Source: Branchiostoma floridae
Taxonomy: Eukaryota
Assembly: GCF_015852565.1 (NCBI RefSeq)
Contig: NC_136191.1
Span: 11,848,578 to 11,912,577 of the forward strand
Direction of reading: 5' to 3'
Length of the DNA stretch: 64,000 nucleotides
Part shown: positions 29,133 through 63,800 of the stretch, piece after piece
Layout: the number at the start of each line of letters is the position of its first letter
Position numbering within the stretch: the stretch's first letter is position 1
Position numbers and translations under genes: made by a program
Notes under the pieces: generated by a model
The model's input: only the letters and a program-made list of their open reading frames with translations
Told to the model about the DNA's origin: nothing
Databases searched by the model: none

Positions 29133-29790
29133 AACAGCATAACTCGAGAAGCTTTGGATGGATCCTGATGATATTTGGTAGGTGGGTAGGGGTCGGGAAA
29201 ACAACGGTCAAGTTTCATAATGGGCCCCCTAGCGACTTGCCAAGGTACTGCAGCGGAACTTCCATTTTTGATATCTCGTGTTCTGGACATGCTGTGGTTG
29301 TGATTTTTAAGTGGTAGATAGCCCTTGGAACAGAGAGTAAGTGCTGTGAGTTTGGACCACCTAGTGGCTTTTTTTGGAACTGCAGGCGTCGGTTTCCTTT
29401 CAAACTTTTGATGAGAATAACTCAAGAACGTTTTGACGGATCGCCATGATTTTTGGTATGTAGATAGAATGAGTGATGACTTACATAATGAGATACTGAT
29501 TATGCAAATCAACAGCTAATTTGCATAATTAATGAGGAAAGTTTATAAAGTCACTTCATTCCATGATAGAACTTTCAAACTTGTCACGTATGTAGCTGGA
29601 AAGGAGAGAAATGTCGATAGATATCTATTATGCAAATTACGACCTCATTTGCATAACTAATTAGAAAATATGAACGCATTGATGAATCGTCATGATTTTT
29701 GGTATGTAGAAAGCCTTAAGTAAAGACTTACATAATGAGACACCAATTACATAAATTATCAGCTAAGTTTCATAATTAATGAGAAAAGTT
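29133..29790. repeat. Three adjacent copies of a short interspersed repeat family (additional copies at about 37470-37560 and 41215-41345)
   Basis: A shared core ...ataactc(a/g)agaa(g/c)(c/g)tt.ggatgga(t/c)c.tgatgatatttggta(t/g)gt(a/g)g... appears at 29133-29250, 29407-29530, 29660-29790, 37478-37560 and 41218-41345. Several copies are followed by an ...attatgcaaat...ttgcataattaatga... segment. Confidence 0.5.
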
Positions 29791-42785: not shown

Positions 42786-42884
<99 letters not shown>

Positions 42885-44879: not shown

Positions 44880-45193
44880 CGTACCACTGCGTGGACGTTA
44901 CGTAACGGTTGAAACAGTTACGTCTCTGCGTGACACAGATACATCTTTATTGTACACAAAACACTTTTAGAGTAGAGTTATGACATTTCTAGATACCACA
45001 GTAGTAAAATGTGTATCACTTGTCAAAGATATAGATACAAGAACACTACATTTAAGACGACGAGGCGTGTCAAGTAGATAGAATTCTATTCAAACTTACA
45101 GCGTTAAGGTGTTTTTGCCGGGGCGCCGAAGGCGCCCGGCTTTGTCCCCGGTTTAATGGTTCGTCCTTGGATGGGTCTGCTATGGTCGCAAAA

Positions 45194-45306
45194 TGTACCG
45201 TGCGTTTTTACGACAATTCTCAGCCCTTCTCAGCCCTTCAAATAAACGCAATGTACCGTGCGTTTTTACGACAATTCTCAGCCCTTCTTAGCCCTTCAAA
45301 TAAACG
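45194..45306. repeat. Roughly 57-bp direct repeat x 2
   Basis: aatgtaccgtgcgtttttacgacaattctcagcccttct(c/t)agcccttcaaataaacg occurs twice in tandem. Confidence 0.8.
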
Positions 45307-45488
45307 TTGTAAGAATACTGTTTATCCATGACCTCTACTCGTACAGAAAACATTGCAGCGCTCATTAGCAAAGTCTAGGAAAGGAAAATGTTTCTTGATT
45401 TGCAGTAAAACACTGGTCATGTAACATTTGAGGAGTTGTCGTTAAATCGCACGGTTCATTTTGCGATAGCGTTGACGGGTCCGGGTAT

Positions 45489-45688
45489 TTAGCGGAATAA
45501 CCCGGAATAACCCGGAATAACCCGGAATAACCTTAATAAAGGATGAAAGCTACCGAAATACAGTGTGCTTTGATAAGTTAAGATCGCAGAATGCAATATT
45601 TTGGCATAAAATAATGTATATATGGCCATGGGAACAAGAAATATTACGGTTATTCCGGGTTATTCCGGGTCATTTCGGGTTATTCCGG
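45489..45688. repeat. Small foldback: (CGGAATAAC)n microsatellite arms in inverted orientation
   Basis: 45489-45530 (gaataacccggaataacccggaataacccggaataacc) versus 45645-45688 (ggttattccgggttattccgggtcatttcgggttattccgg), separated by about 110 bp. Confidence 0.7.
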
Positions 45689-46602
45689 TAAATACCCTCA
45701 CGGGCGTTGACGGTGCGGAGGAGGTGAGATTTTTATCGTACAGAAATTGGTACAGTTTGTAAAGTTATCTTTCTGGAATTCGGATGTATTAAAATATAAC
45801 ATTACATTCTAAGGCGTAGTGTCATGTGAGTAAAATGAGCACGACATTTGACGAAAGATTTTGTGGAGGGTATACAGTCAAGTTTATTGTGCAACGATTG
45901 GAACAGTTTACGTGCGGGTGGGAGGGGGGCGTGCGTCTATATATGCAGCTGCAGGAGGTCCTGCAGGACATTTTCGATCGTAAGAGTAACGTACAATTTG
46001 AAAAGATAGTGATCATGAATTCGGACACATTGAAACATATTTCCAAGGAACGGTATATAGTTTTTTTAGTAAAACCAGTGTGTGGGGATTGACGAGAATT
46101 TAGATAGTTTAATGGTGCACTGTGCTTGAGCCGATGCGAGGCATTATGCAGGGCATTTTTGATTGTAAAAATATCGTACAAGTTGAAAAGATGGATCGGA
46201 TTCTAATACATTAAAACATACATTTCCAAAGAATAGTAGAAAACAACGGATTGTAGCTAACTGTTAAACAATCAGCAAAGCAGTTGGCAAGATGTCACAC
46301 CTGAACTTTTGTAGATTTTTGCTTTTTGTTGGTACTAGTAAGATGTTATGTGATCAAGACAATATTTTCTTTCTGTTTCAGTGACGCCTTAGACTGTTCT
46401 CTGCTATATATACAAGTGACACAGTAATATACAGAAACTTACAGCTAGCAAAAGTCTGTACTCAATAAGATTTTACACAGTACACATTTATACTTCTTCT
46501 GCTGAAATCTACGCATTACATTTTGCATCCAACCAAAGAGGTTTGAAAGAGAGTCCTTGATCCAACCAAATTAGACCTTGAGACCTATTAACAGATCATT
46601 GA

Positions 46603-46912
46603 TCACTGTGCATTTTGCACATACCAGACTCAATCGTGCCACTGAGCACTGCATTTTGCACACACCAGACCAATTGTGCCACTGAGCACTGTGCATTTTG
46701 CACACACCAGACCTATCGTGCCATTGAGCACTGTGCATTTTGCACACACCAGACCTATCGTGCCATTGAGCACTGTGCATTTTGCACACACCAGACCAAT
46801 CGTGCCATTGAGCACTGTGCATTTTGCACACACCAGACCAATCGTGCCATTGAGCACTGTGCATTTTGCACACACCAGACTCAATCGTGCCACTGAGCAC
46901 TGTGCATTGTGC
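46603..46912. repeat. 48-bp minisatellite, about 6.5 units
   Basis: The unit cactgtgcattttgcacacaccagacc(a/t)atcgtgccattgag is repeated head-to-tail. The ORFs 46571-47029, 46615-46896, 46630-46914 and 46676-46918 are artefacts of it. It ends 38 bp upstream of the ATG of the 385-aa ORF. Confidence 0.9.
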
Positions 46913-46949
46913 AAATAAAGTCAAGCAAAGAACACATATATTGTGAACA

Positions 46950-48107
46950 ATGTGTGAATCTATTTTATCGGGAAAATACCACCAAGGTGACATCATTTTC
47001 AGTGGAGATAATAGAGGCAAACAATGCACTGCAAATGCTTTAATGGCAGTTGTTAACCACAGTACTTGCAGACAAGCAATTACCTGGACAAGTACAGACC
47101 TTGATGGTGTACTTTTTCAAGGAGATGCACTATACACCTACATAAAACCATCACTAAGATCTGGTGTGGAGTTCCTCTCCGTTGATGATATTCCAGACTA
47201 TTTGCAACTTTACAACAATACTGTACGTGTATCAATAAAAGAGTCTTACACTGGAGACATATTTGCCACAGAAGCAGTCTATCCTTATTACACCTTAAAG
47301 AAAGCCCTAGAAGCAGCATTTGCTGAATCCAACACTTGTCTTTTCATAACAGCACATGGAATAACTGGTTCAACAGTAGCATTGTTGCACGCTGATAACA
47401 AGTATTTTGTTTATGACTCACATGCCAGAAGTCCCATAACAGCATTGCCAGATAGCCATGGCACTTCTACTTTAAGCATGCACAGTTCAAACAGCAATCT
47501 AGTTTCATTCTTGCAACAACTTAACTGGAACACAACATGCAATTTTGAGGTTGTCCCAGTACAAGCAGAAAATGTTTTCTTATCAGTTGAACCTACTGGT
47601 ATACACATTATCAATCTGACTAGCAATGTTTCTTCTATGATTGAGTCAGAAAACTGCTTTCAAGTTCAACAACAACACACATACACCTTGGTTAAACCAG
47701 AGTTTGTATCTACGAAAGAGAACCTACAACAACCAAACACAGCATTTCCATTTGCACCACATTGTAACCAAAGTACTGGGAAAAACATTGTGCCATGCAC
47801 CACAAGCAAACATCCAAGTGCTATGCCAGAGAACAGGAATGAAGGCCTCTTGAATCAATTAGTAATGTCACCAAATGCAGCATCAAATTTAAATGATAAA
47901 AAAGTGCAAGGTCTTGCAATCCAAAGCGCAATATGCAAGGACAAACAAGAAAAACAAACCTATCAACAGAAGACAGAGAGTCTTGCAGAACAAAGAACAT
48001 CATACAAAGCAAAGAAAGCAAATGAGACCTGTGAGCAAAAAGCAGCACAGCAAAGAGCATCATATAAAGCGAACAAAGGTTTCCAGCCAACTTCCCATAG
48101 ATTTTAG
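46950..48107 (+). CDS. Intronless 385-aa ORF of uncertain function; N-terminal half has a Cys...His arrangement compatible with a papain-fold thiol peptidase (OTU/UCH-like?), C-terminal half is Q/K/A-rich low complexity
   Basis: Longest uninterrupted ORF in the window. Candidate catalytic residues: Cys in GDNRGKQCTANALMAVVNH and His in KYFVYDSHARS, about 130 aa downstream. No introns. It is immediately preceded by a 48-bp minisatellite (46603-46912). A 45-bp internal fragment (about 47521-47565) is re-duplicated just downstream (about 48135-48180), which suggests a multi-copy or mobile origin. The family assignment is unverified. Confidence 0.35.
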   Translation: MCESILSGKYHQGDIIFSGDNRGKQCTANALMAVVNHSTCRQAITWTSTDLDGVLFQGDALYTYIKPSLRSGVEFLSVDDIPDYLQLYNNTVRVSIKESYTGDIFATEAVYPYYTLKKALEAAFAESNTCLFITAHGITGSTVALLHADNKYFVYDSHARSPITALPDSHGTSTLSMHSSNSNLVSFLQQLNWNTTCNFEVVPVQAENVFLSVEPTGIHIINLTSNVSSMIESENCFQVQQQHTYTLVKPEFVSTKENLQQPNTAFPFAPHCNQSTGKNIVPCTTSKHPSAMPENRNEGLLNQLVMSPNAASNLNDKKVQGLAIQSAICKDKQEKQTYQQKTESLAEQRTSYKAKKANETCEQKAAQQRASYKANKGFQPTSHRF

Positions 48108-49004
48108 ATATAAACTTCTAGTTTAATAATGATGCACATTTTACTGGAACACAACATGAAATTTTGAGGTAGTCCTTCCAAATGCGCCCCGGCCAGCTTT
48201 TTTTAAAAGCTTTCTTGTTTAATCACAAGATGGATGTCGTGCATTTAAACCTTCCTTAGAGCATTTGAGATGTGTTATCTTAGATATCAGTACAAAGTCC
48301 AGAGCATTCCTCACACTTCTTGTCTTTCAACTGAGCATTTTGAAATATCAACAAGAATAAGATATCATCTAGGGCTACAATTAAGTGAAGTTGTCATTAT
48401 CTTATTGGATATTAAACTTTTATTTGCAAATATATATATGCTACTATTGTAGTCTCGATCGCGAGTACATGCAGTGTGGGTTTATGTTACAATGTTCAGT
48501 TTATAATGTCACATACTTAAGCAGATTGTATGTCCAGTTTCCAACGACAAAATAAACAGCAGGCACTCTTGAAGTTTTGGTGGTTTTCCAGAAGTCTAAA
48601 TATGGCAATGTTGCCATAATTCTGCAAAACAACCTGCTATCAATTACTTCTAAACTTCAGGAGATGACAGGTGATGATAAAATGTGAGAAACGTTTCATT
48701 CTAATCGTCCTCAGTGACTCTGTATACAGTGTAATGTGTGCTTATACTGGGAGCTTTAGAATGCCAATTGTGTTTGATGTACTTTCTCTATATATGGCAC
48801 GTTCTGGCATCGTACTCAAAAATTTATAAAAATAGAATGTCACTTTCCGAACCAAAAACACCCAGAAGTGTATTTCAAGCGTAGTATGCCTTGTTTCTTG
48901 GACGAACCGGGGCAGAAATAAATTCCTGGTCACCTTATTGTCACAGTAGTATTGATCAACCATTGGGATTGTGGACTATCATTAGTACCAATTCCTGACA
49001 CAGT

Positions 49005-51247
49005 CTAAGTCCCGGGTACCCTTCTCCTGGAGACGACATACTCGATGTAGCTGATCATACCGTCGTTGTTTGTATCGTCTTCAGACAGGATCTTGTCCAC
49101 AAGACCTGGTGAGAAAATCCCAATAGTGTAAGCAACACTGGTCTAGTCTTCTCGTCATTACCTAGTAATGGTAGGAGTGAGACATACCCGAAGATGAGTA
49201 TACAACAGTTCTCATTCGGTTTTCTCTAACCATTTGTGGAATTCTATTGCCTAGCTGTGTACTTTTATTTTTGTGTCTTATACATGTATCTATCAACTTT
49301 TCGTTAGATATTGGGCAGTGCTGATTGGCACTGCTAGGTGTCGTTGCAGTTTAAAGGATGTGGTCTCAAACATGACTAAGGCTGTATCACCGCTCATCAC
49401 AATTCATGACAGGGGTAAATTTTCTATCGATCGAAACGGCATCTTGATCTAGCCAGTACAATGCCCTGAGGAAGGTAGAAGAAGTTCTATCCAAAAGTTG
49501 GCAGGTAGGTGATATTGGTTGTGTACAAATAACCCTTTTAAGGCTCAACCTCTCACCAACATGATGAAAGTATTCATGGAGATATAACGCTAGTTCACCT
49601 TTATTCGCGGGGTGACCTTTATCCGTTGTCTTTAAAAACAGCACATTTAGGAGTATTAAGTCTGCGGACTGTGGTTTCAAATGTGCAATATTTAAAAATG
49701 TTCCAATATGAAACCACCGTCCGTCGACTTCATATCCCTAAATACATTTTTTTTACAAACAACGGGTATAGGTCACCCTCGGATAAAGGTGAACCAGCGT
49801 TACCTGTGAATACGGTCATCCTCTCCTGGTGTTCCTGGTTGGTCCGTTCTCTTTCCTGTTCAGCAGTCTCTCCCTCAGGAGCCGGGCGCCCGAAACTGTC
49901 GTAGTCGGAATTATGGGATACCGCCGCCATGATCTCTAACCCGTCCAGATGGTGGTCTTTGTCGCTATCGTGAGATCTGACGTACATATATGATAAAAGG
50001 GCAATAAAACTGAAATAGGGTTTCAGAGGTGTTGTCAAAAAGAACAATCACAAGCCTTACACAGGTGTGCTCGGATTACCTGGCTATCGAGAGACCTGCT
50101 TTGACCTTAAGGGGAAAGGAATAATTGCAAACTTACAAACGCTGCAGAAATATCAATACCACGTGTATCGATATATTATTGACTATTAACTAGCTTTCAC
50201 ATTTGCACGAATATGTTAATATTAGGCAACTAATTGGATACTTCCTGGCTGTTTTTGTCCAAGAAAAGAGCATGCAAAAACATTCACAGACATTCTGTTC
50301 ATTCTTACATGCGGTGTCGTACCTTACTGTAGAGTAGCTCTTATCACAAGATATGTTTTGACACATTTTGAATGTACTTCACTACATATGAATGTCATTC
50401 GTACAAAAATAATGATTCAGAAGTAAATTCATACTTGAAGAAATGGAACTCTCTCTCCGCTGGGGTCATGCTGTTGATATCCTCTTCAGACAGCTCCTTG
50501 ACGTGTTCCTTTAGATGCCTGGGAAATATATATGAAAGTAGAGATATATATTTGAGTGTGTTTATGTACATAAGAGAGAAACAAATCGCCTGATTGCAGT
50601 ATCTTTAATAACCGCTAGATAGCGTGGTTCCGCATCGGCAATGATGTGTGCTTGGGTGGTACCTTAATGTTTAGTAACCCACGATATGCTATATCTAAAT
50701 TGATATAGGATCTAATTACCGAAGTTTCTCCGTTGCTTACGTTATCACATCTCTATGATGACCAGGTGTTCGTTTTCCCACACATGGAAAAGTACTTCAT
50801 GTTTTGTTTGCCCTGCAGTCGGCCCAGTTTATGTAACGTTACAGTAGGAAAACAAAACACAGCGAATCAGCTGCTACCACGTAGAACTTGGAAACATCAG
50901 TTAGCATTACTCACAACTGTTAGTTAATAGTATTCCTGAGTACGTATACCCTGAATTTTTTATGTCCATGACTAGCAACAAACATTGTTCTTCGTTACAT
51001 TTTGATGCGCACTGATAGGCACATACGTACTGACAACCCTTGCACGATGAAATATGTGTGACATTCCCATATGTTAGATAAACGCCGTTTCTATATCATA
51101 CACCTTACCCCTTGTCCTGAAGCATTTGTGCGTCGCGAAATTTGTTGTCGTCGTACCCCTCGGGAGACAAGCAACGCGTCTGAGGGACCAGGAGCAGGAC
51201 CATGGCCCCGACCACAGCCGGGAGAACAGCCGACGACATTGCCACAC
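49005..51247 (-). CDS. MCFD2-like EF-hand protein (multiple coagulation factor deficiency 2 homologue), tandem copy 1 of 4
   Basis: Four exons on the minus strand. 51108-51247: signal peptide MAGSVAMSSAVLPAVVGAMVLLLVPQTRC...FRDAQMLQDK. 50436-50518: GHLKEHVKELSEEDINSMTPAEREFHFFK. 49797-49966: SHDSDKDHHLDGLEIMAAVSH plus a copy-specific insertion NSDYDSFGRPAPEGETAEQERERTNQEHQERMTVFTG. 49005-49115: GLVDKILSEDDTNNDGMISYIEYVVSRRRVPGT then stop; second EF-hand loop DDTNNDGMISYIE. Compare vertebrate MCFD2: [49 protein letters not shown]...DDDKNNDGYIDYAEF. Confidence 0.8.
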
Positions 51248-51830
51248 TACCCGCCATCCCTCTGTCCCGGTGTTAACTAGGAGTACGCCTACCGCTGGTT
51301 ATCTTTGCAAAGCTCGTGTGAACGTTTGTCAATGTTTAACCCATAGTCTAGTATCAACGACTGTAAACTTGCGTAAAAAGTTGTCGGTCATTTTTACGAG
51401 TATCGTGTATGATGTATGCGTAATGTCCACGGACTGATACTTTTTGTTTGTGCGTAAAAAGGCCCCATTAAATGATGAAATACGATGTAAAGTTTGACCT
51501 TGTCAAGCAAAGTCTTATCCTACTAGTGAAGTGAGTACTTAAGATACCAACAAGCAAGAAGACAACTTCATTGAATATGTTAGCGTATTTTTCTTTATTT
51601 CTTTATCTAAGTTTGATTTTGTTTGAACCTTTATCTAGAGTCAACGACCGTCCATCATATCTATTTCCATGATGAATCCACTATGCACAATAAATATAAG
51701 AAAACGTACTGTTTTATATAGGTCTAAGTTTAACAGCATTAGACAACGTCTCTTGAATAGTTTTCTAACTGGTTTGAAGTTACTAACAGATTTCTATTTG
51801 GTAACCACTTTTTTTCCAGCCTTTCAAAGA

Positions 51831-53620
51831 TAAAACTCTCCTATTGGTTCAGCTGGTCATTCAGGTCCTTTTGTCGCTGCTGTTGTGAGGCTTGTACATC
51901 TTTTTCATGTCTGCGTCTTGATATGACGTACTCGACGTAGCTCATCATGCCGTCATCGTCGGTGTCATCCTGCTCCAGGATCCTGTCCACCATGCCTTAA
52001 GACGAAGATAAATATTGTAAAATACTGTTTATCTTTTTGTTTGTGATTTACACGTAGCACCTTTGTGATATCATGAGCTTGTTGGATGTTATTTTTCATT
52101 AAGTTTTCCTCTTGCATAACTATGTTAAAACATATATTGAATACACGGAGAAAAATCTTGTTATCCATAGAACAGTACGATAGGTCGTGACGTCACATGA
52201 CAGGCCGTAAATGCTAAAATGTATTTTAACTTCTTGCTACCTTTCGTCAAAGATGGCAATCATTCTGATATTTTCCTACCTTACTAAGACAGTGACATAG
52301 GAGCAGAAATGCTCTTTAGGGGGAATCCTTATATCATAGCTACTCTGGATATCATGGGGGGATACCCGCTTAGTCACGTGCACGTTTGGGACCTCCTTAC
52401 TGCAGCGCCACCTAGGATTTTGTTTCCAGTCATGACATACGGCAGACCTGTTAGAAAGTTGAGTCTCTCCTGATGTTCTCGGTACCTCCTGGCTCGTGTC
52501 TGTTCGGGCGTCTCGTGTTCGGGCACGGGCTGTTCGGCCGGCTCTCTGTGGTAGTGCTGGTGATCAATGGCCGCCAGGATCTCTAAACCGTCCAGCTTCA
52601 AGTCGTGATCAGTGTCGTGAGATCTTCACGTGAAGGAAGGGTTGAAAAAGTCAGTGAACGACGAAAAAAAGGAAAACTTGGGAATAGAAAAAATTGACAA
52701 CAAACGAAGACAAAAAAGGCCTGGCCTTGAACGTATCGTTAGACGCTACAAGCTAGTAACGTACTTGAAGAAATGGAACTCCAGTTCCTCGGGTGACATC
52801 TGGTTGATCTGTTCCTGGGTCAGCTCCTGTACGTGTTCCTTCAGATGACTGCATGAAAATAACATTGCAAACGTATATAAGACCTGGTAACTCAACTGGT
52901 ATGGAGGGCTTTAGTAAAGTTGACGGCCGGGCTTTAGTAAAGTTGACGGCCGTCAACTTTACTAAAGCCGTATGGAGCATATGAAATGACGTTCTGTTAC
53001 GTGTTTTGTTTGCATTTGATATTCAAACGCACAAGAGGGTGGTTGAGAGGCCCAGCTGCTCCAAGTCACACGCCTATATGAGGCTCGAAAAACCTTTGTT
53101 GAGAGGTACATTTTCAGGATAGTCAAGTCTGTGAAACATTTCCTAATCGCTGTAGCAAATGTTACTCACCAACTTGATAATATGAAAATGTCATTATTTG
53201 AGGTCAGGCAAATGTTGGTTTACTTATCTCCAATCAATATGTTTTAAAAGAACAAAGGTCAGGATAAAAGTACAAATGTTTCCGTTATGTGGCCTTGTAT
53301 GTTACGGGCACCATATGTAAAATTGCAATTGAATCTTCTTGAGAAGATGGTGGAAATATTAGACTAAGTGTATTCCTCGGGTAATTAAATCAATCAAAGC
53401 GTGACTAAGTTAGTGACGTTAAAGAATAAGTCTTGTTGTGAAAATTGAATATCCATATGCTACCAGATTATGCCATATGGCTTGTATAAACACTGTTCGA
53501 CAAGAGAACTTTACCTTTTGTCCTGCACCATGGACGGATCCCGAAACCTGTTCTCATTATCAGTACCGAACACGTTATGCACCAGAAGTAGACTCACCCA
53601 GACTGCAAGACAAGACCACA
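51831..53620 (-). CDS. MCFD2-like EF-hand protein, tandem copy 2 of 4
   Basis: Exons 53514-53620 (MAGLWSCLAVWVSLLLVHNVFG...FRDPSMVQDK), 52765-52848 (SHLKEHVQELTQEQINQMSPEELEFHFFK), 52448-52623 (SHDTDHDLKLDGLEILAAIDHQHYHREPAEQPVPEHETPEQTRARRYREHQERLNFLTG), 51831-51995 (GMVDRILEQDDTDDDGMMSYVEYVISRRRHEKDVQASQQQRQKDLNDQLNQ then stop). GT-AG at all junctions. Confidence 0.8.
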
Positions 53621-54235
53621 ACCCCGCCATGACTGTGTGGACTGGGGTACTGGCGCTTTTGTCCGTTCGCTATTGTATTGGCTTCGTGTGAGGGTAAATA
53701 TGATTATTGCAGAAGTACACGTGTACTCAGAGTTAATCATTACTTATATATAACAAGTACTACCACGTAATTGAGCTGTAGTACCTGGCATTAGTGCTGT
53801 AAATTGAATTCTTCTTGGATTACATTTTAAGGGGCGTGCCCGCCTTGCGTTACGTGGTCTTTGTAGTTTAAACTCTATATCACATCAAGTTCTCAGTGTG
53901 AATTACATGTTGTGTAGTTGGCAAAGAACTTAAGATGTCACAGACTACAAGTAATACACAGTAATACACAGTACAAAGAGTGCGATTCGCATTGTGACAG
54001 GTCAAAGAAATAAATAGTGAAAAGCAGACAAAGAAAGTTTGTTCGTTTGTGACAATTTCAATGTATAGAATATCAAAGTTCTGGTCTACCTCTTTATTCT
54101 TTGCAGACAGTCCTCATTTAAAAAAGGTAAGGATACCTGAGTTATGGCTAAAACGCTTTAACAATGTATTCATTCTAGTCATGATCACATGGGACGACAA
54201 TGACATGTTTACAACTCTTCATTCATATCCGCCAT

Positions 54236-56127
54236 TTATGATGTTCCCGAGTTTTCTTGATTCCTCTTCACATTCTGCTCCCTGTGCTTGCGCGTTGAGA
54301 TGACGTACTCGATGTAGCTCATCATCCCGTCGTTATCTGTATCATCTTCTTCTAGAATCTGGTCCACCAAACCTATCAGTATAAAGGCAAACCGTTGATG
54401 CTAGAGCGTACTATAGATATGCTTTTAGATGTACATTGAGAATGTACGTCTTGTTGCACTTGGTCTTTCGCTACATTGACTTTTGACATGATTCGTCAAA
54501 GGGCATCTAATTTTTGAGTTTAAAAAATATCACATTTGACAAAATCAACAACTATTCTTCGTGATATCAAGTGGCATGTTCTTTTCTCTAGGCTCAAACG
54601 AGATGACCATCTAATGCATGGATTTTTGACAAAGAAACATTGACCTTCTATTACAAATGTCAACTCTGGTTTCTTCCTTGAACCTTCTTCTTGTTGCGGA
54701 GAAAGACATTCATCTCCAAGAGTATCTACATGTATCAGACTACTACTCTTATATTAGTTGAAACATAACGTATGTTACCTGTGTGGTACTTCAGCCGTTC
54801 ATCATCGTCAGGAGGATAGTTATATTCAGACCTATGTTCGATGGCGGCCATGATCTCCAGACCGTCCAACTTCATGTTCTTGTCACTGTCGTGGGACCTG
54901 GTGAGAGGACGATTTAGCATAAGTATTAACTTAAATACACTTGTAAGCTGTATAACTAAGTGTTAGCTACTCTGTATTTGCTTCTGTAGGGATGAGGGTT
55001 TCGTGTCCCAAAACTTTAAAGCTTTTAAAAAATCTTTATGGCTGTATATGTATTTGTCTTATCTTTTCTATGGTGTCTTTATCTCCAGCATATTCTAATG
55101 AATATGAATGAGTGAACGAATTTGCTCAAGCCACTGACTTACTTGAAGAAGTGCCACTCCAGTTCCTCAGGTGACATCTGGCTGATCTGTTCCTCTGTCA
55201 ACTCTTGTACGTGTTCCTTCAGGTGACTGCAACAAAACGGTAATACAAATTGAGACGTCGGCCATTATCCACATGACTATATATACAATGTAGCCTTTGC
55301 GTTCTTCCGCTGTCTCTCCAAACAGAGTTATAAGTAACAGATAACAGAGTAACAGACCCATCTGCTGTTGTTCACACGCTACAACGGGCTCTTACACTAA
55401 ACACCCACATATGCAAGTGGCGGAAAAAGTACTAATTAAGATATGTCAGCCATAATTTGGGGTCATTTGTGCCTCGCATGATTGTTGATTATGAGGGCAG
55501 CAACTGGTATTGGTCCATATGTTGTAATCAGTCCCAATGGCGCAACAACATGTCATGCCAAAATATGTAGTCTGACGTAGGCTTACTTATTCTTTACAAC
55601 ATCTTATTTTAACCATGCGATTACGGCATCCTGATAACACAAATACATATGTAAAATAGAATTGAATATAAAGGAATGTACGAGACTACATAACGTAATA
55701 TCGTTTCCCCTAGTATGGAATAATGGACTGAGAGAGCAAAGAAGGGGCTCTCATGCATGCAATGAAAATTCAGAAATTGTGTTGAGCCAAGTTAGTCTGA
55801 TCCAGCGTTCCTCACTCCTCTGTCTGAAATTCTAACCACCTGATGTTCCGAGAAAAAAAGCGTTTCTGTCCTTAGTCAGACCACGTGCACGACTATGAAA
55901 CCGCCAATTATAATCCTCTGTTATGTCCCAGAACTGTCTGTCTATTCCATATGTTAACGTTATACATGTTCACACATATCTACCTACCCTTTATCCTGGA
56001 CCATGGATGGATCCCGAAACCTGTTGGTGTCCCCCTCCGCTGTAGACACCGCTGTCGGTACCAGGAGGAGGTAAGTACCGAAGGCGGCTAACAGAGCGAA
56101 CGGTAACCGGGGCTGAGGCATGGCCAT
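54236..56127 (-). CDS. MCFD2-like EF-hand protein, tandem copy 3 of 4
   Basis: Exons 55988-56127 (MAMPQPRLPFALLAAFGTYLLLVPTAVSTAEG...FRDPSMVQDK), 55143-55226 (SHLKEHVQELTEEQISQMSPEELEWHFFK), 54778-54897 (SHDSDKNMKLDGLEIMAAIEHRSEYNYPPDDDERLKYHTG), 54236-54372 (GLVDQILEEDDTDNDGMMSYIEYVISTRKHREQNVKRNQENSGTS then stop). Confidence 0.8.
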
Positions 56128-56959
56128 AGTGAAGACTAGTACTATTCTACACGCACATGCTCGTGTCGTGAGTGTCTGTTTGAGTATAGTATTTGCACTT
56201 GTGTTTAATCTTTAATGCATCACGATGACGTGCTCCACACGTGACAAGTTTATTAATTTTGATATCTTCAACAATATAACCAAGTTCAACAAGGAACAGT
56301 TTTATTGCGTTTTGTAAGATACTACATAGTCTACTTCTTGATACCAAGTGGACATTGTATATTCAGCGGTTCTACTAGTTCATCTTACCTTATGGTTAGG
56401 TTAGATACATGCATATGCTATATGAACAATTCATTGAAAGTACACACACCTATAAAACTATTATCATGGCATCAGTATGATAAGACTTCAAGGCAGGGTA
56501 CGTAAATGTTGTATATAGATAAAAGGGAGTATAATTATTGTATTTCACACTAGGTGATCATCATCAAATGACCAATCCTTTGAAAAAGATCTTCAGGCTA
56601 GCGCTATCGACATAGAGCGCTTAACCGTGAAATCACCGTGTTATTTTCGCTCAGATGCTTAGCCCCCTTAACTCTTCCTTTTCAACGTTCAAGGCGGGTC
56701 GTTAGGTCTTATACACAGTTTCGTCGAATTCCTTTCAAGTTGTACTTAAAACGGTGAGCATGGGATAACCTGTCACACGTATGCTTACGAGCGTACATGT
56801 TTAACGTTATATATCGCTATCCGGATCCCTCAATTATTTTACAAACAGGTGCCTTCAGATGTATGTCTGGTTATTAACGATTGTGAGCATTGGCTGCACG
56901 TGCCATATATTTCTAATTTCATCAACTTCTTCTACTTTTTCTACATCTAATGTAATAGC

Positions 56960-58540
56960 ACTGGTAAATTTAATTTCCCTGTTGTTCTTTTTGTTTCCTT
57001 TCCGCCTCTCTTTGTTTCCGTGCAGCTTCAGCCTCGACTTCGCGCCTTCTCCTGGCAATGACGTATTCAATCCAGCTGATCATGCCGTCATCATCGGAGT
57101 CATCGTCCGCAAGGATCTTGTCTACCATACCTGCGCAGTGGAAACAGCGAAAATTCTAGCGGAGACAGACCAGCATTTTCGTAGAGGGGGTATTGAAAAA
57201 ATTGTATTGGGAGGATTAGACCATTGATTTACCCAAGAGATGTTACAAAAAAAGGTGGCAAAGGTCCAGAAAGTTCAAAAGCTGACCGGGTAAAAATCAA
57301 ACGAACAATATTTTAGTTTAACTTAATATTTGCTTCAAAGTCAAACTGTACTGCCTATTAGGTAGTTCAAGTCCTTCACACACCATATGTTGTATATTGT
57401 GGCGCCCATCTCCGTTTCTATACCACTTGGCTACACAGCTGAGAAAGCTCTACATCAGTGGCTAGTCCATATGAAAGTTCTGTTTGTACCTGTATAGTAC
57501 TCCATCCTCTCGTTATAGTCAGGAGGGTAGTTATACTCGGATTGATGCTCGATGGCGGCCATGATCTCCAGTCCGTCCAACTTCAGGTTCTTGTCACCGT
57601 CGTGAGATCTGTCGTTAACGACAAAAGCATAAGCCTTTTTTTATGTGATTTTATCCAGCCACGCTTAGGCTTTGGTCCCATTTCCGAAACGGGACCCGGC
57701 CGGAATGTTTACAGAAATGAAAAAAAAAGTGTTCACCAAGGAATATACACGATTGATTAAGTCTCCTGACTAATTTTTCTACGTTCTGTGTGTTTTGTTG
57801 CCTTTCTTCATCATATTTTTGTTTCCTAAAGCTGCCCGGCCGGGCCCTGGGTTGGGCCTAAGGATGACCTGTAGATATGGTACATACTTGATGTCAGCGA
57901 TATAATACAGTCTGTCATTATACTCGATTAGCAGATCGATAGAGGTTTCTGAAAAGGATGTACTTACTTGAAGAAGTGGAACTCTACTTCTTCAGGTGAC
58001 ATCTGGTTGATCTGTTCTTCAGTCAGCTCTTGGACGTGTTCCTTTAGGTGACTACGGGAAATATTAAGTTCAGGATTTAACTATGCAGCTGGTGCTGTAA
58101 CCATACATATTACATGCTTTCCTTCGGAGTTGGAAGGGGGGTGCCAGCTGTGCCCGTTCACACTCTATGGGCTTACAGGCCGCAAATCCGTTAGATTATA
58201 AATGAAATTTTAAAAATAACAGAAACCTTTACGTCAAAAACACAGCACAAGAATGATAAAGACCCGTACCAATCGAAATAGACATATCCACAGTATGATT
58301 CATTACCTTCTGCACATTGTAACAATGAAGTAAAAAAAAAGTTAAAGATCCTAATGTAACGCTACCCATATTGTTCCATATGGTAATCTGAACATTAAGA
58401 CAGAACCATAAAAACTCACTGTTTATCCTGTATCATTTCCGGATCCCGAAACTTGTTGCTTGGAGTATCTCCGGTGCCAGTACTTAATGCGTTCGGCACA
58501 AGAAACAGGAAGGCACCGAGGGTCGCCGTCAAACGACATA
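56960..58540 (-). CDS. MCFD2-like EF-hand protein, tandem copy 4 of 4
   Basis: Exons 58441-58540 (MEFLCRLTATLGAFLFLVPNALSTGTGDTPSNKFRDPEMIQDK, donor GTGAGT), 57968-58061 (HLKEHVQELTEEQINQMSPEEVEFHFFK), 57490-57608 (SHDGDKNLKLDGLEIMAAIEHQSEYNYPPDYNERMEYYTG), 56960-57130 (GMVDKILADDDSDDDGMISWIEYVIARRRREVEAEAARKQREAERKQKEQQGN then stop). Confidence 0.8.
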
Positions 58541-59745
58541 AAAACTCCATGATAGCAGCTTAAAATTTGTTCCGCTAGTGCCTTACTACTACAAGCCGCA
58601 TGTGAGTATCGAGTATGTGTGCCGAAATTAATCTTTAACCGCGCTGTGCGCCCGCACCCACGTGTTTTAAACACTCGATAGTGCTTTGCTTACACAAGTA
58701 TAAAAACAATTGACAATACATAGTTATTGTAAGGTGTCCGATTCTGGGTGTCGTGAGAATGAAAACCATTGGGACATGATGTAAAGGGTATCTAAATTTA
58801 TTATGAACAATTCTTGAGTTTTTCACACTTTCAGCCTTGCCATAGTAACCTTTCATTGGAAGGTAACTGAAATGCGGACAGTTAGGAAGACGAAGGTACA
58901 AAATGCCATGAAAACACACGTGAAACATGCAGCCGAACCTTGCATCTGCTTGAAGATTATCGAAACGCTCCCAGCAACTCCCAGCAAGGGATTGTAGTAA
59001 TTTGTTTAAGTAAGATGCGATTTTAGTTTATAAAAATAGTTAGACTATGTGACAGTAGACACAAATACCAAATAAGAACATGTCAGTAACTGTGACCAGA
59101 AGCACCATGGCCATTTACAGCATCTATGACTTTGGCAGCTAGCCTACGCAACTCTACATGGTGACCATTATGCCACATTCTGTGTGGACTAATAAGAACA
59201 GGAAGGGCGTTGCCCATATGTACAATGACACCCCTTCTATCTTCTATGACACCACCATAATGGGACTGTTATGATATAGTAATGGTATGTGATATGGGCT
59301 ATGGTTAGGGGGAGGGGGGAAACGACACTACCCAAACGCCTTGTCACAGATGTCATTCAGAGTTCAGAGTTTTGGAAAAAATGACTCCGTGTTAAATACA
59401 TTTCGCAGTTGACATTTGAATTAAGCGACGCCCACCTCATATAACATTTTGTGAGGTTTATTATAGCAATTAAATAACATTGTTCTACATGGCCTACGTC
59501 ATTACGATAAAAATATAAGAGTTACATTATGTTAAATATGTTCTCTCGTTGTAGTTCATTTGACTCTTTTTCTACCAACAAAAATGCACGCATAGAAAGT
59601 TCTGGTCGTCCTGGTAAAGATGTGTAATGGAGATATTATGATGTGGTACAGCCCCCACACATGTTCTATAAGGAATGAGGGATTCACCAGTTTAGTAACA
59701 CGCCTATACATAACGGGATGACTAGTGATGACCGCCATCGCGCCT

Positions 59746-59881
59746 CTATATATATCCCCGGGGAACAGCTGCACAGTACAGTCCCCAGGGTCGCGCCGTG
59801 CGGCCGCCAATTCAGATTTCTGCACAATTTTCTACAGACAAAGACACTTCAAAACATCGCAAGCTCTCAAGTAACGACAAG
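59746..59881 (+). promoter_or_regulatory. TATA-box promoter and non-coding first exon of the downstream Ig-FN3 muscle-type gene
   Basis: TATATATA at 59746-59755 in a GC-rich context (ccccggggaacagctgcacagtacagtcc follows). An exon-like segment ends at a consensus donor acgacaag|GTAAGA (59881/59882). The next acceptor (ttttctcag at about 60830) precedes a 5' UTR and the ATG at 60877. Confidence 0.45.
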
Positions 59882-60876
59882 GTAAGAAACTGTTGATCCC
59901 TCTAAGTAGTGTTTAAGCGTTATTGTGTGTTTCGCTGTACATTTTTGTACCAAAGACAAGCAACAGTAAGTTATGTGCACTGCGTTTGTGACATTGTTAT
60001 GATAGACAGGGACAGATGTTTGATGATGAGCTCTCCATGAAATATAGTTTATTTCTAACCCCCCTCCCCAATACCCCCTAACATGAAGAATATCCTTTTT
60101 ACAATTGCCAAATAAATTGAACGACTAATGTAAAGTTCTATCATGTTTTGTATCACTTCGGAAGTGATATAACTTGAATAACATTTCATTGCCATTAAGT
60201 TATTTCTGGTGGTAGCAATATTTGTGTCGTAACGCTACCTATTGTTGCATTTAGTCTTTCATGGTATGGCTGTGTCTTTTGAAGTTTATGAAAATGATAC
60301 ATTCTAAACATTGCCTCCTAGACACCTTAGATAGCGTTAACGTTTCATTCAACCCATGGCTATGGCCGATCGTATGCCATGATTTCAGTAGCATACGACA
60401 TAGTTCTTATACAACAAAGAACATTCTGGTCTCTGACAACCGGTACCAACTAATTATGTGTCACGATACCGCTATTGGTGGGAAATTTTAGCTGATTTAT
60501 AGCCGTTACTGTTATGAAACAGTGAGCTTCTGAGCAGGCGCGATTCTCCATTAATGCAGTCTAGACAAATGTCAATTCCAATGGTTCAAGAAAATATCGA
60601 GCTAAATCTAGCCGCGTATTAATTTTTTTCAATAGCTCGCAGTGGAAATGTGGTCAAGTTACAGCAATGTTCCTACACAACGATTTCCTTCTAAATTTAT
60701 ATGCCCATGAATCTATATAGCTATACTCTTGCTCTGAATGTGTTCACATGTTTGTGTTTACCACCCGCGATATGGAGTGGTGCACCATCTTGTCGAAATT
60801 ATTGCGTGATGATTAGTTTCTTTTTCTCAGGTAAAAGATTGCCAGGCTTGTGACAAGCAAAGAACAAAACAACATT

Positions 60877-63800
60877 ATGTCAGGTGGAATGAAAACCCTG
60901 CGCATCAAGTCCGGAAATGACATCAAACTTGATCTGCCAATCAGCGGGGACCCTCCACCGACGGTCACGTGGTATAAGGATAACAAAGAGTTGCGTAATT
61001 TGGGCCGATACAGCATCCGGAACACCCCCATTTCTACCATACTGAAGGTGCGGGGTGCAGACTGGACAGACGCGGGAGTATATACACTAAAGGTAATGGC
61101 ACTTTGAATGACACAACTACACTGATACATACTTCTTGAATTGAATCATAAGTGGATAACATCATCAGATGACTTTAGGAATGAGTCAATAATGTTTTTC
61201 CTCCGCCTTGCTCCGACTCACTAACCTATTGCATATTGACGACAAACAAAAACATATCTGAGACAGACTTGAATAAGAAATTCTACTGAATGAAATAATT
61301 TGTGTGAAATGAATTTCAGCAATTGAACTTGGTGTGAAGGGAGTTGGGTACCAGGAGAATGCACACGACAAAGTCCATGTGAATATTTGTTGCGCTTTAC
61401 ACTCTTAACAAAACTTGCCTCTTCCCTTTTTTCCAGATTTCTAATGAGTTGGGAACCAACAAGGCCGATATAAAGATTGAGGTGATTGGTCCTCCCGACC
61501 CCCCTAAGGGCCCCCTGACAGTCAGTGACGTCACCGCTGAAACTGCTGTGCTGACATGGGCACCACCACAGTACGACGGCGGAGCGGAGGTAACATGGTG
61601 CTTTTTTGGCGACACCTCAATGGTGGAGCCGATGATACAGTACTAGTGTTACCATCGAGTTGAAAATGTTCTAAGAACTCCTACTATGTGTTCGTTTAAA
61701 ATTAGTTTTGGGCCACGCCTCATGAGCTCAAGCGTCTGGTTCACGCATTCCTTGTTCAGGGCTAGCACGACTCTACGTGACGTATCAATACATTTACGGT
61801 TGCTGATTTTCAGGTGATGAACTACGTTGTTGAGAAGACGGACAGTTTCGGGTTGACCTGGGTGTTCGTGAACACAAACGTACAGAGGAACACGATCCGT
61901 GTGACCGGGCTGATCCCTGATGGGGAGTACAAGTTCAGGATCAGCGCAGAAAACAGGTGAGTCATAAAGGTCAATCTATTGGATCCTTTCGTTGAGCCCT
62001 TATGACAGGTCGTTCAGTGTAATATAACCATCTACTGCCGCACCGCGTGCCTGCGAAACTGGTGTGTTACGTTGAAGGGCGGTTATACGGCTATATAGAT
62101 ACAGATACAGGTTATTACCACGTCATAGAGCATGATCATCACTAGCTAGATGTCATGACGTGGTAGTTTCTACACCTGACGATGTGTTTTGTTCAAGGTT
62201 TGGCACGGGACGTCCCATCGAGACTGACGTCATCGTAGCCAAGAACCCGTACGACATCCCGCCCTCCCCCCGAGGCGTGCGGATAGTGGATGCGACCGGT
62301 GAAACCATCATATTGGCATGGCGACCGCCTGCAGACGACGGCGGGTCAGAGATCACAGGTCAGTATCAACCAATCAAGTACGGCTGAGACCTTTATCTGA
62401 AGTTTCTCTAATTTCTGTGAATGAATGTTCTCAATTCTCTAAAGATAACTTTATTCCATATTTATTATATTTTTCTACCCAGGTTACATTGTGGAACGAC
62501 GTGAGAAGACCAGCCGCCGCTGGGTGAAAGTTAACAAAACTCCCGTCAGGAAACTGGAGATCCGTTCACAGGGGCTCGTGAAGGTATTCCTCGCGCTTTG
62601 ATAAAGCACCACAAATAGCGCTTCATTTTCAAACGTCACGAGCAACCGCAATGTTGGTAGCGTTGTTAGATCCAAGATGGCGACCAATCACTCCGAATCC
62701 GAACTATCAACTATTTTTTTTCAAAATCATTCTGGTACATATATATATTCTCTAAATATTCAGGGTCAAAATCAAGCATGTATTGGTTAAGAAAAATTAC
62801 GTCGCATAATGGTTTTGCACGCTCCTTTAAACACACCATGGCGGAAGTTTGCACAGTTGACATCGTTAAAACACCTATTTTGTTTTTGCAACCGGCATTG
62901 TTTTCGTATCATTTGTTGGTGAGTGTTTTCTACTAGTTACGATGAACATGCTGGTGCCCATCTAAAACTACCACGCTTCCTGTACGTTCCCAGGGCCTGG
63001 AGTACGAGCACAGGGTGAGCGCAGTGAACGCAGCCGGAGTGGGGACCCCTAGCGAACCAACCGAGCTGGTGGAGATCATTGATCCCGTTGACGAACCGAC
63101 TGAATTGAAGGTGAGAATTTGCATTCGCTTTGTTTTGTTTTGTGGTGCTCAAAATAAGACGTTATTCTAAACACTGTTGTTTTTCGCTTTCATAGCTCAG
63201 ATGTGGACAAACTTGTACCATCTCTCCCCCAGGTTACAGAGGTATCCAGGAATTCGGTGTCGTTGAAGTGGACAAGGCCCCTTAGCGACGGAGGAAGCCG
63301 CATCGTGACGTACATCATCGAGCGACGTCAAATGAAGGATGCTGAGGAGACTTGGCTGCTCTGTAACGACTCGAACGTGCAAGACACCAACTTCACTGTG
63401 GGGAACCTGTTAACGGATGAGGTCATCGTCTTTAGGTAAGGACCAGATTTGGTTTTTTCTGCAATCTTTTTTATCCCCTTCTTAAAAATAAAAAGACATC
63501 AACAAAGGAACAGCATGACAGAATCGATGCAAAACTAAATAGGATGAGCTTTCTACCTTTAGGGCTATAGGTGCACATCTGGTGGCTGTGACGTAGCAAT
63601 GACGTAATCAAATGTCAGCCATATCGGTTGCTCTAGTAAAGACGCATGTAAACACATAAGTCATTTTGTGAGTACTTTTCAGTATCCAGTCCAATAAATA
63701 TGACAACACCACAATCTCGTCCCCCACCCTCCTTCAAAATCATACTCCTTTATGTTGAAATTTATGAATATTTTTGTTATATGTACGCACCATTATCAAA

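What the first reader, a model, noticed from the sequence alone, without database searches (positions are those of the whole stretch)
49005..58540. Four-gene head-to-tail tandem array of MCFD2-like EF-hand genes
Vertebrate MCFD2 is a single-copy luminal EF-hand co-receptor that pairs with the cargo receptor LMAN1/ERGIC-53. Here, four complete paralogues, each with four exons, sit within 9.5 kb on the minus strand. The two EF-hand exons are conserved, but the signal-peptide exons differ strongly, the C-terminal tails differ, and copy 1 carries a 35-aa acidic insertion in the inter-EF-hand exon. That pattern looks like a lineage-specific expansion with diversification, perhaps of cargo or partner specificity, rather than recent identical duplicates.
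Basis: partly seen in the sequence, partly recalled or inferred. Interest (0 to 1): 0.65.

Follow-up and report, generated by a model that had tools for sequence, protein, structure and literature searches.

The report
Amphioxus tandem array of MCFD2-like genes
Four intact neighbouring genes in an amphioxus genome encode divergent copies of MCFD2, a small calcium-binding helper of protein export, and they are an old, genus-wide, selectively maintained offshoot that exists alongside a normal MCFD2 gene on another chromosome; databases already label them but nobody has described them.

Summary
Four head-to-tail genes lie on the minus strand at 49005-58550. Each has four GT-AG exons and an intact ORF of 159-176 aa. 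[quoted passage not shown]

- **Family:** human MCFD2 is the only significant solved relative, by sequence and by predicted fold.
- **Age:** the same ordered array occurs in B. lanceolatum, which has a fifth young copy, and in B. belcheri.
- **Selection:** paralogues have saturated synonymous divergence. Orthologues have dN/dS of 0.08-0.30.

- The array is not amphioxus's MCFD2 orthologue. A slow-evolving canonical MCFD2 gene with identical intron positions sits on another chromosome. The array is a separate long-branch clade found only in Branchiostoma. It differs at seven positions that are otherwise conserved, including Tyr135 to Met.
- There is no 35-aa insertion in one copy. Copies C and D keep the ancestral long exon 3, and A and B lost 18-19 codons.

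Function is inferred: soluble, calcium-dependent secretory-pathway adaptors. Whether they still dock on ERGIC-53 is untested. This is a new member of a known kind, of moderate interest.

The parts
56970..58550 (-). Gene A, MCFD2-like, 164 aa. Exons 58420-58550, 57968-58051, 57490-57608 and 56970-57130. Short exon 3 (119 nt). Long charged tail (RRRREVEAEAARKQREAERKQKEQQGN).
   Evidence: GT-AG splice model and ORF. Identical to XP_078599420. Orthologues in B. lanceolatum and B. belcheri have omega 0.08-0.30.
54236..56127 (-). Gene B, MCFD2-like, 159 aa. Exons 55988-56127, 55143-55226, 54779-54897 and 54236-54372. Short exon 3 (119 nt).
   Evidence: Splice model. Identical to XP_078599419. Best PDB match by sequence is MCFD2, E 3e-16. 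AF2 pLDDT 88.6. Omega 0.14-0.24.
51841..53630 (-). Gene C, MCFD2-like, 176 aa. Exons 53515-53630, 52765-52848, 52448-52623 and 51841-51995. Long exon 3 (176 nt). It is the only copy with all four His of the human Zn site.
   Evidence: Splice model. Identical to XP_078599417. AF2 pLDDT 91.8. Foldseek top hits are MCFD2 chains. Omega 0.09-0.14. His columns.
49005..51257 (-). Gene D, MCFD2-like, 168 aa. Exons 51109-51257, 50435-50518, 49804-49976 and 49005-49105. Long exon 3 (173 nt). Shortest tail (RRRVPGT).
   Evidence: Splice model. Identical to XP_078599418. Omega 0.13-0.14.
52448..52623 (-). Exon 3 of C. It carries EF-hand 1 and the long inter-EF linker. In the model the linker lengthens the entering helix of EF-hand 2 to 30 residues (106-135).
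   Evidence: Exon lengths. Canonical amphioxus gene exon 3 is 182 nt. DSSP of the models: helix 106-135 in C against 106-124 in B.
49804..49976 (-). It is homologous to the C linker (shared pattern P.PE.ET.EQ.R.R...EHQER).
58659..58664 (-). CACGTG box about 110 nt upstream of the ATG of A, within AACACGTGGGTGCG, which is conserved in three species. A putative promoter element (inferred).
   Evidence: Upstream comparison of 13 genes.
56238..56243 (-). CACGTG box 116 nt upstream of the ATG of B. An ACGTCA 12 nt downstream of it is the element conserved in B. lanceolatum and B. belcheri, as ACACGTCA. A putative promoter element (inferred).
53718..53723 (-). CACGTG box 93 nt upstream of the ATG of C, within ACACGTGTAC, which is conserved in three species. 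A putative promoter element (inferred).

Best explanation
**Shown**
- The window comes from an amphioxus genome. It is the B. floridae-type haplotype of the B. floridae x B. japonicum assembly.
- It carries a head-to-tail array of four intact genes of the MCFD2 family.
- The genes form a fast-evolving clade that is found only in Branchiostoma.
- They share all three intron positions and phases with the canonical amphioxus MCFD2 gene, which persists as a single, highly conserved copy on another chromosome. The array therefore arose by DNA-level duplication, not retroposition.
- The four-fold tandem duplication predates the split of B. floridae, B. lanceolatum and B. belcheri. All four copies have been kept under purifying selection since then.
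- Each protein has a signal peptide, an N-terminal 'lid' with the HxxxH motif, two canonical EF-hand calcium loops, and a basic C-terminal helix. None has a KDEL-type signal, a cysteine in the mature part or an N-glycosylation site.

**Inferred**
- They work like MCFD2. [quoted passage not shown]
- My best guess, at about 50%, is that they still ride on the ERGIC-53/LMAN1 lectin.
- On that reading the four copies offer different client-binding surfaces. They differ in linker and helix-3 length and in their tails, and each has its own promoter and signal peptide.

Confidence by part: about 0.95 for family assignment and evolutionary history, and about 0.5 for the ERGIC-53-dependent mechanism.
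For: **Structure and identity**
- Gene models and ORFs. Exact identity to four RefSeq proteins.
- By sequence, MCFD2 is the only significant solved relative.
- AF2 models have pLDDT 91.8 and 88.6. The 12 best Foldseek PDB hits are all MCFD2 chains, and the best is the cryo-EM form that includes the N-terminal lid.
- Both EF loops have canonical ligand positions. D81, D89, D122 and D129 (human numbering) are conserved, and so are three of the four Zn-site histidines in every copy (Zn site from PMC10944485).

**Evolution**
- Collinear arrays occur in B. lanceolatum and B. belcheri.
- Orthogroup bootstrap support is 98-100%, and the array clade has 99.8%.
- Paralogue dS is 1.6 or more, or saturated. 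Orthologue omega is 0.08-0.30, with bootstrap upper limits of 0.57 or less.
- A canonical MCFD2 gene is present in all three species on a different chromosome. Its intron positions and phases are identical to those of the array genes.
- An exhaustive HMMER scan of 1.84 billion representative proteins with an array-only profile found only Branchiostoma array proteins at or above 185 bits. The next hit scored 147 bits and is a canonical homologue.

**Mechanism, from the literature**
- MCFD2 lacks a retrieval signal, is held in the ERGIC by LMAN1, and binds cargo through its EF-hand helices (PMC10317151; PMC7069976).
Against: - No expression data could be examined. Transcription and splicing rest on RefSeq models and on selective constraint.
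- ERGIC-53 binding is untested.
- All 13 array proteins carry Met where the other 67 sequences of the 78-sequence family alignment have Tyr or Phe (human Tyr135). Y135N is a human disease mutation that disrupts the LMAN1-MCFD2 complex.
- Six further positions that are otherwise conserved are also changed: I52L, L56V, Y76F, L/M79S, F/Y82 to S/G/T, and T86 to L/M/H.
- The canonical copy could cover the ERGIC-53 role alone.
- The position of the array clade in the family tree is unresolved. Array plus canonical amphioxus as sister groups has only 19% bootstrap support.
Confidence: 0.6

Rival explanations
1. Uncoupled, secreted calcium-binding proteins. After duplication the array copies lost ERGIC-53 docking. 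With no retention signal they leave the cell and act outside it or in later compartments. This would resemble the mosquito salivary MCFD2 homologue LTRIN, or MCFD2 itself when LMAN1 is absent.
For: - The signature substitutions are fixed in all 13 array proteins at positions conserved elsewhere. They include Tyr135 to Met, and Y135N breaks the human complex.
- None of the four has a KDEL or HDEL ending.
- MCFD2 is secreted when it is not bound to LMAN1 (PMC10317151).
- LTRIN is a secreted, calcium-binding insect MCFD2 homologue (PMC10813304).
- A conserved canonical copy remains available for the ancestral role.
Against: - Met for Tyr is a conservative hydrophobic change, unlike the human Asn mutation.
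- One non-array family member also has Met at this position (P0142).
- The lid, helix 1, both EF loops and the core of helices 2 and 3 are strongly conserved within the array.
- No binding data exist either way.
Confidence: 0.33
2. One complex locus rather than four genes. The array would be transcribed across gene borders, and splicing between copies would make chimeric proteins. The units would then behave partly as alternative exon cassettes.
For: - The RefSeq annotation of B. floridae lists B, C and a chimera as isoforms X2, X1 and X3 of one gene.
- The X3 protein (P0009) consists of exons 1-2 of C followed by exons 3-4 of D.
- All introns share phases 2,2,1, so any such join stays in frame.
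- Only 583-842 bp separate one gene's stop codon from the next gene's ATG.
Against: - Each unit has its own ATG and signal-peptide exon, its own stop codon and a poly(A) signal.
- Upstream boxes are conserved between species.
- The newer hybrid-genome annotation calls four separate genes.
- The chimera is a computed gene model whose transcript support I could not inspect.
Confidence: 0.12
3. These are the amphioxus orthologues of vertebrate MCFD2, simply multiplied. That is the plain reading of the finding.
For: Databases give them the same name as MCFD2, and MCFD2 is the best solved relative.
Against: - A separate canonical gene exists. It is 95-98% identical between Branchiostoma species and 44-55% identical to outgroup homologues. 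The array copies are 31-48% identical to the same outgroups.
- The array is a distinct long-branch clade.
Confidence: 0.04
4. Assembly-level duplication, or decaying pseudogene copies.
For: None found.
Against: - Synonymous divergence between paralogues is saturated, and there is no intron or spacer similarity.
- The same array appears in independent assemblies of three species.
- ORFs are intact and omega is well below 1.
Confidence: 0.01

Closest known systems
Human MCFD2 (PDB 3A4U, 2VRG, 8JP4/8JP5), soluble EF-hand co-receptor of ERGIC-53/LMAN1
   Same: - A signal peptide followed by a small soluble protein.
- An N-terminal lid with the HxxxH motif.
- Two EF-hands with conserved calcium ligands.
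- No ER retrieval motif.
- The best match by both sequence and fold.
   Different: - Only 31-37% identity over the mature part.
- A basic helical tail after EF-hand 2 where human MCFD2 ends in FAKSLQ.
- Tyr135 is Met, Tyr76 is Phe, Met79 is Ser, and Tyr82 is a small residue.
- His101 of the Zn site is kept only in copy C.
- Four tandem genes instead of one.
- ERGIC-53 binding is unknown.
Canonical invertebrate MCFD2 homologues, including amphioxus XP_035672128 (P0136)
   Same: - The same four coding exons, with identical intron positions and phases.
- A long inter-EF linker, as in copies C and D.
- The YV..RRR basic tail.
   Different: - The canonical gene is single-copy, lies on another chromosome and spans 5.6 kb, against 1.6-2.3 kb for the array genes.
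- It evolves slowly: 95-98% identity between species, against 82-97% for the array.
- It keeps the family-wide residues that the array has replaced.
LTRIN, the Aedes aegypti salivary MCFD2 homologue
   Same: It is an MCFD2-family EF-hand protein with a signal peptide and calcium binding. It shows that family members can act as secreted proteins.
   Different: LTRIN belongs to the canonical insect lineage and does not carry the array signature (insect rows). It is not known as part of a tandem array. Its partner is a vertebrate host receptor.
CREC family (SDF4/Cab45, calumenin, reticulocalbins)
   Same: Luminal EF-hand proteins of the secretory pathway.
   Different: From general knowledge, CREC proteins have six EF-hands, are about twice as long, and often end in HDEL-like signals. 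The array proteins have two EF-hands. They gave no CREC match in the PDB or Pfam searches.

Membership tests
MCFD2 family (broad sense) | Closest sequence relatives are MCFD2 proteins rather than other EF-hand families | tested here: met
   By PDB phmmer, MCFD2 scores E 3e-16 and the next family E 0.008. All named database hits are 'MCFD2 homolog'.
MCFD2 family (broad sense) | Predicted fold is an EF-hand pair with the N-terminal lid helices | tested here: met
   AF2 pLDDT is 91.8 for C and 88.6 for B. Foldseek PDB ranks 1-12 are all MCFD2 chains, and the best is 8jp5_C.
MCFD2 family (broad sense) | Two canonical 12-residue calcium loops with acidic ligands at positions 1, 3, 5, 9 and 12 | tested here: met
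   EF1 is D.D.[ND]..LDGLE and EF2 is D.[DN].DG..S..E in all four copies. Calcium binding itself was not measured.
MCFD2 family (broad sense) | Signal peptide, soluble, and no KDEL/HDEL retrieval signal | tested here: met
   Each copy has a hydrophobic N-terminal stretch (Kyte-Doolittle 2.0-3.2). The C-termini are QQGN, SGTS, QLNQ and VPGT. This is a crude test, not SignalP.
MCFD2 family (broad sense) | Zn-binding His cluster (human H51, H55, H99, H101) | tested here: inconclusive
   H51, H55 and H99 are invariant in all copies. H101 is His only in C and is Ser in A, B and D. Most invertebrate homologues also lack it (site defined in PMC10944485).
MCFD2 family (broad sense) | Common gene structure with the bona fide MCFD2 gene of the same animal | tested here: met
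   The three introns are at homologous codons with phases 2,2,1, both in the canonical B. belcheri gene and in all the array genes.
MCFD2 orthologue (one-to-one with vertebrate MCFD2) | Being the amphioxus gene that groups with, and evolves like, MCFD2 of other animals | tested here: not met
   A separate canonical gene fills that place. The array is a distinct clade with 99.8% bootstrap support and a long branch.
MCFD2 orthologue (functional co-receptor) | Calcium-dependent 1:1 binding to the ERGIC-53/LMAN1 lectin domain | not testable with these tools
   No complex prediction or binding assay is available here. The papers listing interface residues (PMC2840101, PMC7193514) are not held.
MCFD2 orthologue (functional co-receptor) | Conservation of residues whose mutation causes F5F8D (D81, D89, V100, D122, D129, Y135, I136) | tested here: inconclusive
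   The four Asp are kept. V100 is Q, R or N. Y135 is Met in all copies. I136 is I or M. The other mutations are from my own knowledge.
CREC family (SDF4, calumenin) | Six EF-hands and about 300-360 aa | tested here: not met
   Two EF-hands and 159-176 aa. There is no CREC hit in Pfam or the PDB.

The most novel reading that the evidence does not exclude
The array is a cephalochordate invention. On this reading it is a set of four to five specialised soluble adaptors split off from the MCFD2/ERGIC-53 export receptor. They would either multiply the client range of a single lectin receptor, or have become secreted calcium-dependent ligands freed from ERGIC-53. In-frame splicing between neighbouring copies would add further combinations.
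Probability: 0.2. Interest if true: 0.55.

Novelty: new member of a known kind. Interest (0 to 1): 0.32.

Why it matters
MCFD2 is treated in the literature as a single-copy, vertebrate-centred co-receptor known for coagulation factors V and VIII. One review even states that no clear orthologues exist in lower eukaryotes.

This locus shows that an invertebrate chordate keeps a conserved MCFD2 and also a long-lived family of four divergent copies under selection. Amphioxus is generally held to lack factors V and VIII, though I did not check this. The family must therefore serve other clients.

The array offers natural variants at positions such as Tyr135, in the linker and in the tail. These could be used to ask which features set ERGIC-53 docking and which set client choice.

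It also warns annotators. One RefSeq annotation merges three of the genes into one gene with 'isoforms'.

Tried and rejected
- **Exact look-up of protein B.** The contig index had no record of it. I used the orthologues P0003, P0002, P0011 and P0048 instead.
- **Exact-match splice mapping.** It failed for two B. lanceolatum proteins because they come from another assembly. I replaced it with homology projection.
- **First bootstrap run.** It timed out and was redone with my own distance code.
- **Interface residues of the ERGIC-53-MCFD2 crystal structures.** The two key papers are not held, and the papers that are held give no residue list. I therefore make no claim that the signature residues touch ERGIC-53.
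- **Counting LMAN1-like genes in amphioxus.** I confirmed my human LMAN1 sequence against the PDB. I ran no further search on it, because only the best 120 hits are listed and vertebrate LMAN1 would probably fill them. A literature search gave nothing relevant.
- **CREC/SDF4 assignment.** Rejected.
- **Assembly artefact or pseudogenes.** Rejected.
- **Sister pairs within the array.** The tree does not resolve the order of duplications. A with B as sisters is suggested only by the shared deletion and by the 82% identity of their exon 3.
- **Rfam scan of the window.** No RNA family found.
- **Literature.** No paper in the library mentions both MCFD2 and amphioxus.


Full report
**What is in the sequence**

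Reading the minus strand of 48.5-59 kb, I built four gene models:
- A: 56970-58550
- B: 54236-56127
- C: 51841-53630
- D: 49005-51257

Each has four coding exons. All 12 introns are GT-AG, the intron phases are 2,2,1 in every copy, and exon 2 is always 84 nt. The ORFs encode 164, 159, 176 and 168 aa. tblastn with the four proteins finds these 16 exons in the window and nothing else.

All four translations are identical to consecutive RefSeq entries XP_078599420, XP_078599419, XP_078599417 and XP_078599418. [quoted passage not shown] The window is therefore amphioxus, and an independent pipeline reached the same gene models.

No single copy carries a 35-aa insertion. Exon 3 is 119 nt in A and B, 176 nt in C and 173 nt in D. 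Two copies are therefore longer, by 18-19 codons. The canonical amphioxus MCFD2 gene has a 182-nt exon 3, and protostome homologues also have long linkers. The long form is ancestral, and A and B have lost a segment. A and B also have the most similar exon 3 of any pair, at 82% nucleotide identity.

In the AlphaFold models the extra residues lengthen the helix that enters EF-hand 2. That helix spans residues 106-135 in C and 106-124 in B.

**Family assignment**

- Pfam sees only a generic EF-hand pair, at or just below its threshold.
- Against all solved structures, human MCFD2 is the only significant sequence match (E 3e-16). The next family is at E 0.008.
- The model of C (pLDDT 91.8) gives MCFD2 chains as Foldseek ranks 1-12. 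The best is the cryo-EM form in which the N-terminal lid is ordered.
- Both calcium loops are canonical. The aspartates mutated in human F5F8D (D81, D89, D122, D129) are conserved.
- H51, H55 and H99 of the recently described Zn-binding lid (PMC10944485) are invariant. H101 survives only in copy C.
- All four proteins start with a hydrophobic signal-like segment. They have no KDEL-type ending, no cysteine in the mature part and no N-glycosylation sequon.

**Age and selection**

I fetched the orthologous loci of B. lanceolatum (L001) and B. belcheri (L002-L004).
- The same genes lie in the same order and orientation. An Ig/fibronectin gene lies upstream, and an EMI/collagen gene lies downstream.
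- The window is collinear with these loci from about 41.5 to 62.4 kb, including non-coding stretches.
- B. lanceolatum has a fifth, young copy next to A (A2). Its dS to A is 0.21 and its omega is 0.68, with a bootstrap interval of 0.38-1.28.
- Within the window the paralogues are 55-64% identical. Their dS is 1.6 or more, or saturated, and their introns and spacers show no similarity.
- Orthologue pairs have dS of 0.31-0.74 and omega of 0.08-0.30. No bootstrap replicate reached 1.
- A neighbour-joining tree recovers orthogroups A to D with 98-100% support.

These are therefore old, maintained genes. They are not an assembly artefact and not decaying copies.

**The main correction: a canonical MCFD2 gene exists elsewhere**

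A profile search of the protein database returned 1004 family members. Among them is a second kind of amphioxus protein: P0048 in B. belcheri, XP_035672128 in B. floridae, and CAH1264296 in B. lanceolatum. It is encoded on a different chromosome.
- It closely resembles MCFD2 homologues of hemichordates, echinoderms, brachiopods and annelids.
- It is 95-98% identical between Branchiostoma species, against 82-97% for the array copies.
- It is 44-55% identical to outgroup homologues, against 31-48% for the array copies.
- Its gene has the same three intron positions and phases as the array genes. The array therefore descends from an MCFD2-type gene by DNA duplication, not retroposition.

In the 36-taxon tree the array is a single long-branch clade with 99.8% support. 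It is separate from the short-branch canonical clade, which has 100% support. Where the array attaches is unresolved. Array plus canonical amphioxus as sister groups has 19% support, and the attachment to insects looks like long-branch attraction.

An exhaustive HMMER scan of 1.84 billion representative proteins with an array-only profile found only two array-type representatives, at 258 and 185 bits. Both are from Branchiostoma. The next hits, at 147 bits or less, are canonical homologues from other phyla. Among the best 120 hits of the profile search, the hemichordate and echinoderm species that appear are each represented by a single protein cluster.

The simplest history is a cephalochordate-specific origin, followed by divergence and then tandem duplication before the Branchiostoma radiation.

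**What distinguishes the array proteins**

At seven alignment columns all 13 array proteins differ from a residue that at least 85% of the 23 canonical sequences share. In human numbering these are I52L, L56V, Y76F, L/M79S, F/Y82 to S/G/T, T86 to L/M/H, and Y135M.

In a 78-sequence alignment, five of these columns were checked (76, 79, 82, 86 and 135). The array's combination of residues at them occurs only in the array. Single changes do occur elsewhere: P0142 has Met at position 135, and P0139 and P0143 have Phe at position 76.

Y135N is a human mutation that disrupts the LMAN1-MCFD2 complex (PMC10119632). Met is a much milder change than Asn, however. I could not obtain the interface residue lists, so I do not claim the signature lies in the interface.

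Between the four paralogues, fixed differences concentrate in three places: the signal peptide, the linker with the start of helix 3, and the tail. The lid, helix 1 and the calcium loops are largely invariant.

**How it most likely works**

From the literature:
- MCFD2 has no retrieval signal, is held in the ER-Golgi intermediate compartment by calcium-dependent binding to ERGIC-53, and is secreted without it (PMC10317151).
- It binds an ERGIC-53 peptide, and through helices 2 and 3 it binds a leucine-rich segment of its clients (PMC7069976).

The array proteins keep every general feature needed for this. I therefore infer soluble, calcium-folded adaptors of the early secretory pathway. The four copies would differ in client range or in where they are expressed.

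Whether they still dock on ERGIC-53 is open, and I put it at roughly even odds. The main rival is that they have been released from ERGIC-53 and act as secreted calcium-binding proteins. The mosquito salivary protein LTRIN, an insect MCFD2 homologue, is a precedent for that (PMC10813304).

A minor rival is that the locus behaves partly as one transcription unit.
- For it: RefSeq for B. floridae lists B, C and a chimera of C exons 1-2 with D exons 3-4 as isoforms of one gene. The identical intron phases keep such joins in frame. The spacers from stop codon to next ATG are only 583-842 bp.
- Against it: each unit has its own start, stop and poly(A) signal, and upstream boxes conserved between species.

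**Novelty and verdict**

The genes are already in RefSeq and UniProt under the MCFD2 name. I found no paper that mentions both MCFD2 and amphioxus.

This is a lineage-specific paralogue clade of a known family, that is, a new member of a known kind. It is well supported as real and functional, of moderate interest, and its biochemical role is untested.

Noticed in passing
window 45094-48266, with an ORF at 46950-48107 (+): This roughly 3.2-kb stretch lies between the collagen gene and copy D. It has no counterpart in B. lanceolatum or B. belcheri, where the flanks are only about 70-100 bp apart, so it looks like an insertion in the B. floridae lineage. It holds an intronless 385-aa ORF that matches Pfam Herpes_teg_N above the curated cut-off (E 4e-7). 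The ORF's best solved relative is 8add_A, 'ATP-dependent DNA helicase' (E 1e-12), followed by the herpesvirus large tegument deneddylase. It is probably a tegument-like deubiquitinase domain carried by a mobile element.
   Followed up: partly
window 46597-46913 and 45483-45697: Inside the same insertion there is a 42-bp minisatellite of 7.5 copies. There is also a 56-nt inverted repeat whose arms are made of (CGGAATAACC)n.
   Followed up: no
window 49804-52848 (C exon 2 donor at 52765 to D exon 3 acceptor at 49976): RefSeq 'isoform X3' of B. floridae (XP_035690953, P0009) is an in-frame chimera of C exons 1-2 and D exons 3-4. In that annotation B and C are 'isoforms' X2 and X1 of the same gene, whereas the hybrid-genome annotation calls four separate genes.
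   Followed up: partly
L001 5278-6801 (B. lanceolatum): B. lanceolatum has a fifth intact array copy (A2) upstream of A. It is absent from the window and from B. belcheri. Its dS to A is 0.21 and its omega is 0.68, so it is a young duplicate under relaxed or changed constraint.
   Followed up: yes
window 58659-58664, 56238-56243 and 53718-53723, and further boxes nearer each ATG: An ACACGT(G) box lies 93-116 nt upstream of the ATG of A, B and C and is conserved in all three species. A TCACACGA-like box lies closer to the ATG in several copies. Copy D lacks the CACGTG box. These are possible shared regulatory elements, and the transcription factor is unknown.
   Followed up: partly
window 49585-49802 (D intron 3) and 52906-52967 (C intron 1): D intron 3 holds a 220-nt stretch that matches its own reverse complement at 78% identity and looks like a miniature transposon. 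C intron 1 holds a 23-bp tandem and palindromic repeat.
   Followed up: no
window about 41500-45100 (+) and about 59000-63300 (+): The flanking genes are conserved in position across species. An EMI/collagen gene converges on D, with a collagen exon at 43766-44182 (Pfam Collagen, E 3e-11). An Ig/fibronectin-III gene lies head to head with A.
   Followed up: partly
L002 12337-20074 (B. belcheri-type locus): The spacer between B and C is about 7.7 kb here, against 605 bp in the window. It contains sequence similar to window 29088-29386, so it is probably a repeat-element insertion.
   Followed up: no
Proteins P0049, P0053, P0064 and P0076 (hemichordates and an annelid): Several canonical invertebrate MCFD2 homologues end in KDEL-like tetrapeptides: NADL, SSDL, SGDL and SKDL. 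The amphioxus canonical and array proteins do not. This hints that ER retention of this family is achieved differently in different phyla.
   Followed up: no
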